Below are positions 33,301-34,973 of a stretch of DNA of 34,973 bases, one piece after another. Position 1 is the stretch's first letter. Every line of letters begins with the position of its first letter. Under the pieces are notes generated by a model. The model was not told the DNA's origin and ran no database searches. It saw nothing but the letters and a program-made list of their open reading frames with translations. Origin of the DNA: Leptospirales bacterium (GTDB lineage: Bacteria; Spirochaetota; Leptospiria; Leptospirales; Leptonemataceae); the NCBI GenBank assembly GCA_014238825.1, contig JABAAI010000001.1:1-34973 (forward strand), given 5' to 3'. Made by a program: the position numbers and the translations under genes.

Positions 33301-34296
33301 CTAAGTACTGATAGCGCAGGTTTTTTAAGTATCGCGGCTGCGAATATTTTGAATATAAATAATGCTACTATTAGTAGCAGTGATGCTTTCTTTGATGCTG
33401 GTTCTGCTGTACTTGCCTCTAATTTATCTATAGGCAGTGGTTTTGGAGTCGCTGCTATGGGTGGCGTGGAGAAAAAATCCGTTGTAATCGATGCTGGGGG
33501 TGGACTTGATCTGAGAGGAGCGTCTTTGTCTGGAGAAAATATAGAATTATATGCTGGAGGGGATGTCTCTTTCTATTCTGGAGTTAATGAAGGTTTTGGT
33601 GAAAGCTCTATAGTGAGTAATGATCTTTTAAAAATTGTATCTGGAGCTAGTGTTGACTTTCGTGCCATGAGTGGTGAAAGAGTAGCTTTTGAATCTCTTG
33701 AAATTTTTGCAGAAAGTGACGTGCAAATTCAGGGTTCTGTATTTAAGGTCAGTGAATCTGGTGTCTTGGTAGTGGCGGGGCGTGATTTGCAATGGGATGG
33801 TTCATCTTTCCAAGGGGATGGGAAGGTGTACTTGGATATAGGCCGTGATGTCGGAGATATAAATCGTGATGTTGAGAAAGGAATCGTCTCGGTTAATCTT
33901 TCGGTTGCTAATTTTAACCTTAATGCAGGTCGGAATGTTGACTTAAGAGGTGTTGGCATTTATGGTAGTGCAGACAATAATAAAGTCAATGTTTATGCTG
34001 GTAGTGACCTCTTGTATATTGATAGCAATCTATCGTTCACTGGCGATTCTTCTCTTAAAGCAGGCGGTAATTTAAATATAGGGGGTTCTGTCTTTTCTGT
34101 TATAGGCAATGTAGATGGTGCTCGCTTGTCTTTGGTTGCTGGAGGGAATTACTTGGCTAACTCTGTTGAGTTTAATCTTAACGATTCGTCCCTTGATGCT
34201 AATGACGGGTCTGTTTTTATTTGGGGTGGGCAGGATGTTGATTTGAGCTTGTCTCAAATTTCTGCTGCTAAGATTGACATAATTGCCTTGGGTTAG
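27397..34296 (+). CDS. Giant filamentous-haemagglutinin/TpsA-like repeat exoprotein (two-partner-secretion passenger), up to an in-frame TAG
   Basis: 2299 aa. It has a signal-like N-terminus (basic KAKIVNRVNHIKR, then a hydrophobic core, then SLNA|QQ). A TPS (haemagglutination activity) domain spans about aa 70-320: VFNVSTPSRAGVSRNYFQDFNVNQAGLIINN, GNSNLFGGTARIVLSEVTG, FILANSLGIDCDGCSFMN and RVALTTGQ. About 1,950 aa of degenerate roughly 20-residue beta-helix repeats follow (LxAGGDLxLxxSxLxG). These are very rich in Ser, Gly, Asp, Leu and Ala, acidic, and Cys-free outside CDGC. Confidence 0.85.
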   Translation: MFINSLYKAKIVNRVNHIKRSFVALVVITQYLFLLCVGSLNAQQRGLMNQSQDDERSLMMDNSAIQDAYLGRSNNTSVFNVSTPSRAGVSRNYFQDFNVNQAGLIINNSIYGGDSSLSGEYVSGNSNLFGGTARIVLSEVTGSNASSLRGGVEMLGQRAEFILANSLGIDCDGCSFMNMSRVALTTGQVVFGTDGDLSHFNVTEGHVSIGAGGLDASDADFFDIITRSASIDGELQAKDVSMLLGSSQVSYDKRKATSRLRGSGEVVEYSLDVGKLGAIKSNNITMESNAKGVGVRVDGKMSANSGAMHFTADGKMHLGGSASADKGSVSLRSRRGDVLTSGPISAGLDVTIEADLGNYVNDGADISSMAGVINVSVANGISTSGGSFFAGESISFEAGDGFTNIGGDIVSDGFVNIVAGQGDLVNELSSLEARGGDVRLSTRGELRSDDVSISGSQFVKAFAGSSALSSSFSAFANEGIMIYAGDYLSNFDSSSSFTSYGDISLNAGLTLFNESDIFSSESISLGAGEDIVNSASIEAGRGLSLLAGGGISSHILGDADGNRGSLSGSSVSLEAVGGDISIRGDIIATGSVAGFINEDDAQGGGVRIVAGGGIANQGSIRGDNVFIEAEGGDFNSSEGDIIGLSSVSISASRLKQGALGDVIDSGSIRFGAGNISANYVSMDAKHSLLFGPGVMVGSNETSVVELYADSFIKLGGGAKVLANSIVLDGREGIETADGSVVQSRGLGGDVQLVSRHGGISVAGDLLSDSDLSLLASLDVTSGVNSSIKSGLLTGGSSAHFSTLDISSGGGIDINGTLFSGGSVRLDGSYVSVESFNVSAASNDNVAVFSGGDATLDHAVVSAGSFELIAGGEASLDASVLSFSGDFFVIAGAGIDLKSSQVSGVDLYLKSGADLLVENAEFWGRQIGLKAARDLVATNALASASSELELVAGDELLVVDTSLRGDSLLLNSGSDLFGDGSVMNNVGSSALVINSKKSLSLSRADIFSVNGGDISISAADKSNLIGASLNSGSLLSIDVGSDLDVTSADLSGGSLRVFASGNLIASEASFEAAEVEDRLYSVDADGAGAIVISSSAVLVIDDARFDADSLLELHGSRGAKADRLSARVGDSNGVIAISSGGDLSLDDSHLSLRGGDLSLDAVGNISAYNSMIGVADGALSVDAGGSFSFDGAELISSSISLESQRDGIMANDAYLSANYGDLNISAKGNIGLDDSFLSGSNLNIYSLDSVANSNSTVKVTGEGSAIVGAGGGISFSNSELLSGYFNFDAGDSILASGSFMESASDSSTDESLGSVLVAGSVLDLENSIIEVSSLSLFLESKGELVANNASLAVSGEESVLSLKSQSNLSIDRSYLLGAKLSFIASGDISAEGSYLSGSDAKSLSLDAGGDLTIDNSSIKGGDISMRAANDIYASFSTITGKAFDVGLNTKPLLSAGGNLTMLGSDVTYDGKIIVKSATYLDASEAVFRSVEGKEISLMAENKLSLANSSLYGASLNLVAGDKISASGVVLQASVIDSSEEGVGDITIITDASLDISDALLLGVDITVNAGQEVSANSSSFFAQNLTLSSGSSIEADDITLLLSDKNSVADDSIDTNIVRSSLAISAYGDLSMNASVLRADSIALDAGSSLSLVGSDVLSGDAYLEIKAGGDIALSEAKVYGDSVAILSGGDILAKNASLRSSRSGSLDIFSGSFLDLAGDSVVSGGVLSISAEDIVAEGASVLAYSDAGLLIKSQNDLDLDNAFVSSGGELNLVANKVLSAIGSSFGSGAGKGLGINAGAELSLGAASLFVAGDELRIDAGSSLYGSGLVFAGFGDNVSIGISSGASLELDSLALYGSSVSIVAGHNASLKDVSISVREFASDGSGDSVDSLSLIVGGDLNLDDSVILSNSSFRIDALGGFSANRASIDAGNSLVLSAGLGLDIGSSVLKANSISLVANRGDIKAANIVLSTDSAGFLSIAAANILNINNATISSSDAFFDAGSAVLASNLSIGSGFGVAAMGGVEKKSVVIDAGGGLDLRGASLSGENIELYAGGDVSFYSGVNEGFGESSIVSNDLLKIVSGASVDFRAMSGERVAFESLEIFAESDVQIQGSVFKVSESGVLVVAGRDLQWDGSSFQGDGKVYLDIGRDVGDINRDVEKGIVSVNLSVANFNLNAGRNVDLRGVGIYGSADNNKVNVYAGSDLLYIDSNLSFTGDSSLKAGGNLNIGGSVFSVIGNVDGARLSLVAGGNYLANSVEFNLNDSSLDANDGSVFIWGGQDVDLSLSQISAAKIDIIALG

Positions 34297-34973
34297 CTTG
34301 ATTTAGAGGGAGCTTCTATTACTAATGAACTTTCTACAGAAGAGGCGGATAAATTATTTGTTTCTGATGGCGAGCCTGTATTATATGAGGATCGGGATAC
34401 TCGCGTTAGTCTTATCTCTGGTGGAAACTTAAATCTTCAATCATCAACACTTCGTTCTCTTGAAAATGGAGGCTCTTTTTTCATTAATGCAAAAGATGGA
34501 GATGTCTCTTTGCAAGATGCTGATATTGATATGGGGGAAGCTAGTGCCCACGTTAAAGCTGGCGGAGGAAATTCGGGGGTTGGGAGTATTTTCTTAGAGG
34601 GTACACAGGCTAAGGGATATCTTTTTTTTGAAGCTCGTGGTTCTCCATCTGATATTGTCCTGAATAGTGGTACTAGTATAACTGGAGTAGAGTCGACTTT
34701 CTGGGCAGGTAGACAGCTTGATATCGATAGGTCGGGTATGGAAGACGTATCTGCTGTTTATGGGGGCGTCTCGCTTATTCAAAGATACTCTCTAAGTAGT
34801 GAGAAACTAAGGGGAATAAATTTTGAAGAAGGAAGTTCTGTGTACTTGGAATCTCTTACGGGTGATGTTTTTTATGAAAATTCTGATATAGACTCTTCGG
34901 TTACTTCACTGTCACTCAAAGCTTGGGGAACGGTGTCTTTTGATAATTTTGCGGGACGTGATACGCTTAGTCT
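34297..34973 (+). CDS. In-frame continuation of the giant repeat protein after the TAG (partial, runs off the right edge)
   Basis: I translated the same frame by hand for 225 codons with no stop: LDLEGASITNELSTEEADKLFVSDGEPVLYEDRDTRVSLISGGNLNLQSSTLRSLENGGSFFINAKDGDVSLQDADIDMGEASAHVKAGGG.... The repeat character is unchanged. The first canonical in-frame start (TTG 34510) is 71 codons downstream and has no SD. Confidence 0.6.

What the first reader, a model, noticed from the sequence alone, without database searches (positions are those of the whole stretch)
34240..34973. A single in-frame TAG interrupts the giant FHA-like gene inside a repeat unit, and the frame stays open for 225 more codons
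The 2299-codon ORF stops at TAG 34294-34296. The same frame then continues without any stop to the last base of the window (677 nt, checked codon by codon) and encodes the same beta-helix repeat style. The TAG occupies a residue position within a repeat: KIDIIALG*LDLEGASITNE mirrors VVIDAGGGLDLRGASLSGE at 33481-33540. There is no ATG, GTG or TTG for 71 codons downstream and no SD, so an independent second gene is unlikely. TAG is a normal stop here, since it ends ppdK, dut, xseA, rsmI, the mutase and the pgk-like and LCP-like genes at the expected termini. One explanation is a nonsense allele that truncates the passenger and removes whatever C-terminal effector lies downstream. A second is a sequencing or assembly error in a repetitive gene. 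A third is low-level readthrough giving short and long isoforms.
Basis: seen in the sequence. Interest (0 to 1): 0.7.

Follow-up and report, generated by a model that had tools for sequence, protein, structure and literature searches.

The report
Nonsense codon in giant secreted-fibre gene
A single base change (GAG to TAG) cuts short a giant secreted-fibre gene in this sequence, while a 99.5 % identical metagenome contig carries the intact codon, so this is an ordinary truncating mutation or base error and not a recoding signal.

Summary
A 2299-codon ORF (27397-34296) with an N-terminal TPS secretion domain ends at TAG 34294-34296. The same frame then stays open for 225 codons to the window end.

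The decisive comparison is a metagenome contig, L001 (ENA ERZ23489137). It matches window 23182-34973 at 99.5 % identity with no gaps. At that codon it has GAG (Glu), and its ORF runs on for at least 2918 codons to its own end. A distant colinear homologue, P0001 on L008 (25 % identity), has Asn in the same alignment column and also reads through.

The TAG is therefore a derived, private G-to-T change inside one continuous giant tpsA gene. It is neither a natural gene end nor a conserved recoding site.

Several other checks agree:
- The DNA around the TAG is not repetitive, so repeat mis-assembly is unlikely.
- TAG ends 9 of the 22 large ORFs in the window, so it is a normal stop here.
- The window has no suppressor tRNA, and no unusual RNA structure follows the stop.
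- Downstream differences from L001 still look constrained (4 non-synonymous, 6 synonymous), so the change is recent.

A real nonsense allele (about 0.7) and a consensus base error (about 0.2) cannot be separated without reads. The gene's true C-terminus was not reached. Low interest.

The parts
27305..27333 (+). Promoter-like site (TTGACA, 17 nt spacer, TAAAAT) upstream of the giant gene
   Evidence: 11 of 12 consensus matches, the best site in the scanned region. This is a consensus match only and is not proof of function.
27397..34293 (+). The 5' 2299 codons of a giant tpsA-type gene: signal-peptide-like N-terminus, TPS secretion domain, then about 1950 residues of degenerate G/S/D/L-rich beta-strand repeats
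   Evidence: The L001 gene call uses the same ATG start. The single-sequence AF2 model of the last 400 residues is all-beta up to the final residue, pLDDT 66.
27601..28347 (+). TPS (two-partner secretion) domain, aa 69-317
   Evidence: Pfam PF05860 at E 1.3e-35. PDB 1RWR FHA secretion domain at E 1.7e-31 and HpmA at about 5e-31. The usual NPNL and NPNGI motifs read NSNL and NSLGI here (alignment).
34294..34296 (+). In-frame TAG (codon 2300). It differs by one base (T instead of G at 34294) from the GAG (Glu) in the 99.5 % identical contig L001
   Evidence: The distant homologue P0001 has Asn in this alignment column.
34297..34973 (+). Continuation of the same reading frame: 225 codons, open to the window end. 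It is colinear with L001, where the frame runs on for a further 393 codons to that contig's end
   Evidence: The differences from L001 are 4 non-synonymous and 6 synonymous, dN/dS about 0.2. The AF2 model is all-beta, pLDDT 57.
33682..34973 (+). Tract of raised divergence from L001 that contains the TAG: 25 substitutions in 1292 nt, against 23 in the 6285 nt of the gene before it
   Evidence: Fisher p = 3e-8. Synonymous divergence is 0.04-0.05 here and 0.007 upstream.

Best explanation
Window 27397-34973 is the first 2525 codons of one continuous giant two-partner-secretion exoprotein gene (tpsA). It belongs to a divergent bacterium that is probably a Leptospirales-like spirochaete. In this strain a recent single-base transversion turned codon 2300 from GAG (Glu) into TAG, an ordinary nonsense allele. 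Translation then stops after 2299 residues, inside the beta-solenoid shaft. The product keeps the signal peptide and the TPS domain. By analogy with truncated FHA and HpmA fragments, it should still be exported by its TpsB partner (inference). It lacks everything distal to residue 2299: at least 619 residues as seen in L001, and possibly more than 4000 if the gene is as long as its relative on L008. The downstream frame is still intact only because too little time has passed for it to decay.
For: Shown directly:
- L001 (ENA metagenome contig) aligns to window 23182-34973 at 99.5 % identity, with 59 substitutions and no gaps. It has GAG at 34294-34296, and its ORF is open for 2918 codons to the contig end.
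- The only substantial homologue in 1.84 billion representatives, P0001, is colinear with L001 residues 6-2591 (E 1.5e-95). It has a sense residue (Asn) in that column.
- Paralogous repeats within the protein carry G, D or E at this position of the 'AGG[DE]L.L..AS' motif.
- The window/L001 differences look like real evolution: 50 transitions to 9 transversions and no indels.
- dN/dS downstream of the stop is about 0.2, so the downstream part shows no decay.
- The DNA around the site is unique and has no tandem or dispersed repeats.
- TAG ends 9 of the 22 large ORFs in the window.

Background from the literature: FHA-type genes are degraded in most C. jejuni isolates (PMC4202330). FhaB derivatives lacking C-terminal prodomain subdomains (deleted, or cut off by an inserted stop codon) are still processed and still reach the surface (PMC4542190).
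Against: No reads are available, so a consensus base error cannot be excluded. Only one other sequence of this gene exists in the searched collections, so the frequency of the allele is unknown. The change is a transversion, the rarer class (9 of 59). The TAG lies about 680 nt from the end of the window, in a tract of raised divergence. If the window end is a contig end, consensus quality or strain mixing could be worse there. Export of the truncated product is inferred, and no TpsB gene is present in the window.
Confidence: 0.7

Rival explanations
1. The T at 34294 is a consensus or base-calling error, or a chimeric consensus from a strain mixture near a contig end. The organism's gene is intact here, as it is in L001.
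For: The difference from L001 is a single base and a transversion. It lies in the last 680 nt of the window, in a tract with six-fold higher divergence from L001. Both the window and L001 end inside this gene, which suggests the locus assembles poorly (inference). Relatives in other assemblies are also broken in ways that look like sequencing artefacts. On L008, a contig labelled 4x, the frame shifts at an A6G3 homopolymer. On L009 the TPS gene is fragmented.
Against: The two assemblies differ by no indels in 11.8 kb and have a 50:9 transition:transversion ratio, so neither looks error-prone. There is no DNA repeat to collapse. A rough estimate of mine, using assumed rates, compares about 0.5-2 % real divergence with a typical consensus substitution error rate of 1e-4 or less. 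On those figures a real nonsense SNP is several-fold more likely than an error that happens to create a stop.
Confidence: 0.22
2. The TAG is partly read through, by a suppressor tRNA, by pyrrolysine or by a leaky context. The strain would then make a short 2299-residue form and a long full-length form.
For: The downstream frame is fully intact. The base after the stop is C. From my memory of E. coli work this is a weaker termination context, but I did not test it here. Any stop allows some basal readthrough, roughly 1e-4 to 1e-3.
Against: The stop is not conserved: the closest relative has GAG and the distant one has Asn. TAG ends 9 of the 22 large ORFs in the window, and for ppdK, dut, xseA and the mutase the domain matches end just before the stop. 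The only tRNA in the window is tRNA-Gly(UCC). The 120 nt around and after the stop fold no better than shuffled sequence, z = -0.18. The flanking sequence is identical to L001 from 34249 to 34526, so no special context has evolved.
Confidence: 0.04
3. The protein naturally ends at 34296, and the downstream sequence is a separate gene expressed from its own start.
For: TTG at 34510 has a GGAG 8 nt upstream.
Against: There is no start codon for 71 codons after the TAG. L001 and P0001 are continuous across the site. The downstream piece has no signal peptide or TPS domain and no family hit of its own. The predicted beta-strands run right up to the stop and resume straight after it.
Confidence: 0.02

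Closest known systems
TpsA exoproteins of two-partner (type Vb) secretion: Bordetella FhaB/FHA and Proteus HpmA
   Same: The N-terminal TPS domain is clearly homologous: PF05860 at E 1e-35, 1RWR at E 1.7e-31 and HpmA at about 5e-31. There is a long N-terminal signal-peptide-like leader and a very long all-beta repetitive shaft. A colinear relative carries Pfam Fil_haemagg_2 repeats.
   Different: The shaft matches no Pfam FHA repeat model and is close to an orphan, with 4 hits in 1.84 billion representatives. The TPS motifs read NSNL and NSLGI in place of NPNL and NPNGI. No TpsB gene lies within 27 kb upstream. The host is probably a spirochaete, not a proteobacterium. The relative on L008 suggests a length of at least 6500 residues, far longer than FhaB at about 3600 (my recollection).
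Naturally degraded or truncated FHA-type genes, for example the FHA-domain loci that are conserved in C. jejuni ST-677 but degraded in most other C. jejuni (PMC4202330)
   Same: A strain-specific disruption of a large, dispensable surface or secreted fibre gene, with an intact allele in close relatives.
   Different: Here there is one clean nonsense substitution with no further decay, and only two sequences are available to compare.
Engineered C-terminal truncations of FhaB (prodomain deletions, and a stop codon inserted 5' of the ECT; PMC4542190)
   Same: These derivatives remove the C-terminal part and leave the TPS domain and shaft. The ECT-lacking FhaB still reaches the surface and is still processed, but virulence-related function changes. 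This is the model for what a 2299-residue product would do.
   Different: In FhaB the removed part is a defined periplasmic prodomain. Here the stop falls inside the repetitive shaft, and the nature of the missing C-terminus is unknown.
CdiA contact-dependent inhibition toxins
   Same: A giant TpsA with a variable 3' region. Divergence between the two strains rises about six-fold in the last 1.3 kb.
   Different: No VENN or pretoxin motif, toxin domain or immunity gene was seen, and the C-terminus lies beyond both contigs. Membership cannot be claimed.

Membership tests
TpsA (type Vb / two-partner secretion exoprotein) | N-terminal TPS secretion domain | tested here: met
   PF05860 at E 1.3e-35 over aa 69-317. 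PDB 1RWR at E 1.7e-31.
TpsA (type Vb / two-partner secretion exoprotein) | Conserved NPNL and NPNGI motifs in the TPS domain | tested here: inconclusive
   In the alignment to 1RWR the aligned positions read NSNL and NSLGI. These are variants of both motifs.
TpsA (type Vb / two-partner secretion exoprotein) | Long beta-helical repetitive passenger | tested here: inconclusive
   The single-sequence AF2 models are all-beta but of low to medium confidence, pLDDT 57 and 66. Foldseek gave only non-significant hits (E > 0.1), many of them beta-helix or beta-solenoid proteins. No Pfam FHA repeat hit in this protein. The colinear relative P0001 has Fil_haemagg_2.
TpsA (type Vb / two-partner secretion exoprotein) | Cognate TpsB (ShlB/FhaC-type, POTRA-containing) transporter gene, usually adjacent | tested here: not met
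   None of the 21 other large ORFs of the window matches ShlB or POTRA families. None is called in the 10 kb upstream of the relative on L008. The region downstream of the gene is not available, so a downstream or unlinked TpsB is not excluded.
CdiA / polymorphic toxin TpsA | Pretoxin (VENN) motif, C-terminal toxin domain and downstream immunity gene | not testable with these tools
   Both the window and L001 end inside the gene. The 618 residues after the stop position in L001 have no credible Pfam hit (one match at E 0.25) and no hit in the 5.8-billion protein database for the last 393 residues.
Programmed stop-codon readthrough / recoding | The stop codon is conserved at the site in relatives | tested here: not met
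   L001 has GAG. P0001 has Asn.
Programmed stop-codon readthrough / recoding | A stimulatory RNA structure or special context downstream | tested here: not met
   Fold z-score is -0.18 against shuffles. The flanks are identical to the GAG allele between 34249 and 34526.
Programmed stop-codon readthrough / recoding | A suppressor tRNA (anticodon CUA) or pyrrolysine machinery in the genome | tested here: inconclusive
   Only tRNA-Gly(UCC) is present in the window. The rest of the genome is not available. TAG ends 9 of the 22 large ORFs.
Simple nonsense allele (incipient pseudogene) | A close relative has a sense codon that differs by one base, and one continuous ORF | tested here: met
   GAG in L001 against TAG in the window. 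The L001 ORF runs for at least 2918 codons.
Simple nonsense allele (incipient pseudogene) | The variant is real in the source DNA (read support) | not testable with these tools
   No reads are available. The source assembly of the window is not in the searched collections.

The most novel reading that the evidence does not exclude
The TAG is a maintained polymorphism, or a leaky stop, that lets a population or a single cell make both a short secreted shaft and, rarely, the full-length giant protein. This would be a stop-codon-based switch in a two-partner secretion exoprotein of an undescribed spirochaete lineage.
Probability: 0.04. Interest if true: 0.5.

Novelty: new member of a known kind. 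Interest (0 to 1): 0.15.

Why it matters
For annotation, 27397-34973 should be treated as one interrupted tpsA gene (a pseudogene or truncated allele), not as a complete 2299-residue protein followed by non-coding DNA. Biologically, it is a routine case of a large dispensable surface or secreted protein gene being hit by a disabling mutation. The gene family may be more interesting than the stop codon. It is a near-orphan giant TpsA, possibly more than 6500 residues long, found only in a few Leptospirales-like metagenome contigs and with no adjacent TpsB. The stop codon itself opens no new question.

Tried and rejected
Searches that found nothing:
- An exact-sequence look-up of the 2299-aa product found nothing. 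The same look-up for IlvD also found nothing.
- A genome-contig scan with the 225-aa downstream piece gave no relative.
- A metagenome contigs (JGI) scan with L001's 618 residues after the stop gave no relative.
- Word-index protein searches gave no hits at E <= 1e-3, both with a 725-aa piece spanning the stop and with L001's last 393 aa.
- Literature searches for the sample identifiers found nothing.

I therefore modelled the upstream and downstream halves separately.

Results too weak to use:
- Foldseek gave only non-significant hits.

Ideas tested and rejected:
- Gene conversion from another repeat of the same gene as the source of the SNP cluster and the TAG. No other part of the window or of L001 matches this DNA beyond chance.
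- Synteny in the nearest genomes. The Leptonemataceae/Leptospirales MAGs with the closest Mrp (52-59 %) have no homologue of the giant gene next to it.
- A second look-up with RsfS returned only the L001 contig again.
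Full report
**Observation**

The sequence shows TAG at 34294-34296. It closes an ORF that starts at ATG 27397 and runs for 2299 codons. The same frame has no further stop in the remaining 225 codons of the window. The other five frames of that stretch contain 4 to 31 stops, and the chance of 225 open codons at this composition is about 2e-7.

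One small correction: a GGAG lies 8 nt upstream of that TTG. In this G-rich coding sequence that carries no weight.

TAG is an ordinary stop in this window. It ends 9 of the 22 large ORFs. These include ppdK, dut, xseA and the methylmalonyl-CoA mutase, whose domain matches end 4 to 14 residues before the stop. The window has one tRNA, tRNA-Gly(UCC), and no suppressor.

**What the gene is**

Residues 69-317 are a TPS secretion domain. Pfam PF05860 matches at E 1.3e-35. The FHA secretion domain (PDB 1RWR) matches at E 1.7e-31 and Proteus HpmA at about 5e-31. The two signature motifs read NSNL and NSLGI instead of NPNL and NPNGI.

A strong promoter-like site lies 64 nt upstream of the start, at 27305-27333. 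The rest of the protein is a degenerate G/S/D/L-rich repeat that matches no Pfam model.

Single-sequence AlphaFold models were made for the 400 residues before the stop and the 225 after it. Both consist almost entirely of short beta-strands, which run up to the last residue before the stop and resume straight after it. Confidence is only moderate, pLDDT 66 and 57. Foldseek returned only non-significant hits (E > 0.1), many of them beta-helix or beta-solenoid proteins. The stop therefore appears to lie inside the shaft and not at a domain boundary.

At the DNA level the gene is not repetitive. It has no tandem repeats, and the 281 nt around the stop have no second copy anywhere in the window or in L001.

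**The decisive comparison**

The protein of the gene just upstream (Mrp/ApbC, 26117-27193) is encoded identically on one public contig. This is L001, ENA ERZ23489137, BUSC20-1_SAMN14422896_METAG-scaffold_1084, 12,970 nt.

L001 positions 1-11792 align to window 23182-34973 at 99.5 % identity, with 59 substitutions and no gaps. At the stop position L001 has GAG (Glu). The difference is the single base 34294, T in the window and G in L001. The L001 ORF has the same ATG start and is open for 2918 codons, up to the end of that contig 1178 nt beyond the window.

Glu fits the internal repeat motif. Paralogous repeats carry G, D or E at this position of 'AGG[DE]L.L..AS'.

**A distant outgroup**

An exhaustive HMMER search with the 1199 residues before the stop found only four hits in 1.84 billion representatives. 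The best, P0001, has 2644 aa with a TPS domain and Fil_haemagg_2 repeats. It is colinear with L001 residues 6-2591 at 25 % identity, E 1.5e-95. It has Asn in the column of the TAG/Glu codon. A sense codon is therefore ancestral and the TAG is derived.

**How old is the change, and is it real?**

The 59 window/L001 differences comprise 50 transitions, 9 transversions and no indels. This pattern indicates real divergence between two good assemblies, not noise.

Downstream of the stop there are 4 non-synonymous and 6 synonymous differences, dN/dS about 0.2. That is no higher than in the upstream part, where it is about 0.37. The downstream frame thus shows no sign of relaxed constraint, which fits either a very recent mutation or an error.

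The stop lies in a tract, 33682-34973, that is much more diverged from L001: 25 substitutions in 1292 nt against 23 in the preceding 6285 nt of the gene (Fisher p = 3e-8). Synonymous divergence is 0.04-0.05 there against 0.007 upstream. I read this as a recombined or more variable 3' region, as is common in large surface-protein genes (inference). It is not gene conversion from within the gene.

A real nonsense allele and a consensus base error cannot be separated without reads. The clean assemblies and the lack of repeats make a real allele more likely. A rough estimate of mine uses assumed rates, about 0.5-2 % real divergence against 1e-4 or less for consensus substitution errors. It favours a real SNP several-fold. 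I put a real allele at about 0.7 and an error at about 0.2. Two cautions apply. The change is a transversion. It also lies about 680 nt from the window end, which may be a contig end.

**Readthrough or recoding**

Nothing supports this reading. The stop is not conserved in either relative. TAG terminates many other genes in the window. The window has no suppressor tRNA. The RNA around and after the stop folds no better than shuffled sequence, z = -0.18. The flanks from 34249 to 34526 are identical to those of the GAG allele.

**A separate downstream gene**

This reading is contradicted by the continuous ORFs in L001 and P0001. There is also no start codon for 71 codons, and the downstream piece has no secretion signal of its own.

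**Likely consequence (inferred)**

The 2299-residue product keeps the leader and the TPS domain. From my own knowledge, N-terminal TPS-containing fragments of FHA and HpmA are secretion-competent, and the solved structures hit are such fragments. FhaB derivatives lacking C-terminal prodomain subdomains (deleted, or cut off by an inserted stop codon) still reach the surface but have altered function (PMC4542190). The truncated fibre would therefore probably still be exported if a TpsB is present, and would lack its distal part.

How much is lost is unknown. It is at least 619 residues, from L001. The relative on L008 suggests much more. There, P0001 is followed by an ORF of 3886 or more residues that runs to the contig end. 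That ORF overlaps the end of P0001 in the +1 frame, near an A6G3 homopolymer. The two therefore look like one gene of at least 6500 codons with an apparent frameshift, on a contig labelled 4x coverage. The downstream part carries Fil_haemagg_2 repeats. Natural degradation of FHA-type genes among strains is documented, for example in C. jejuni (PMC4202330).

**Context**

No TpsB (ShlB/POTRA) gene is present among the other ORFs of the window, which are housekeeping genes. None lies in the 10 kb upstream of the L008 homologue.

The closest genomes by the Mrp protein are Leptonemataceae/Leptospirales MAGs at 52-59 % identity, and they have no homologue of the giant gene next to Mrp. The source is therefore probably a divergent Leptospirales-like spirochaete, although this rests on one protein. 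A third relative, P0005 on L009, has a TPS domain at 43 % identity. It is a fragmented TPS gene beside an rve transposase and a DUF1564 gene.

**Verdict**

The stop is a private, derived single-base change in a giant tpsA gene. It is most likely a recent nonsense allele and possibly a base error. It is not programmed. The mechanism is ordinary and the interest is low. The gene family itself is an unusually isolated and possibly very long member of the TpsA class.

Noticed in passing
L008 10001-27935 (ENA ERZ25073868 ctg74739_4x_l): The only substantial homologue of the giant protein is also split. A 2644-aa TPS-bearing ORF is followed by an ORF of 3886 or more residues that overlaps its end in the +1 frame, near an A6G3 homopolymer (17908-17916). 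Together they would form a TpsA of at least 6500 residues that still runs off the contig. The frameshift may be a low-coverage sequencing error.
   Followed up: partly
window 33682-34973: Divergence from L001 rises about six-fold in the last 1.3 kb of the gene, and synonymous sites rise too. This suggests a recombined or hypervariable 3' region. Both the window and L001 end inside this gene, which hints that the locus assembles poorly.
   Followed up: partly
window 30697-34293 and L001 11791-12969: The repeat body is close to an orphan. It had 4 hits at E <= 1e-3 in 1.84 billion representative proteins and none in the word-indexed 5.8-billion set. No Pfam FHA repeat model matches it.
   Followed up: yes
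window 1-27396; L008 1-10000: No TpsB (ShlB/FhaC-type) transporter gene lies upstream of the tpsA gene in either locus. In the window the gene sits directly after rsfS and mrp housekeeping genes.
   Followed up: partly
L009 8907-12138 (ENA ERZ25067237 contig_52): A third relative (TPS domain, 43 % identity) is broken into pieces of 365, 75 and 278 aa. It lies next to an rve-family transposase, and an rve transposase also flanks the L008 gene. A DUF1564 gene lies nearby. From my memory that family is Leptospira-associated.
   Followed up: no
window, all 22 large ORFs: TAG is used as the stop in 9 of 22 ORFs (41 %), as often as TAA (9) and more often than TGA (4). That is high for a genome of about 38 % GC.
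   Followed up: no
window 27601-28347: In the alignment to FHA (1RWR), the TPS domain carries NSNL and NSLGI where canonical TpsA proteins have NPNL and NPNGI.
   Followed up: no
window 24402-25589: A 395-aa ORF lies between pgk and rsfS. It has a TTG start here, and L001 calls it as 387 aa. It has no Pfam or NCBIfam match.
   Followed up: no
window 26117-27193 compared with L002-L005: The nearest genomes by Mrp/ApbC are Leptonemataceae/Leptospirales MAGs at only 52-59 % identity. One of them is a 1.9-Mb chromosome of 38 % GC (OZ242290.1). The window organism appears to belong to an undescribed lineage.
   Followed up: partly
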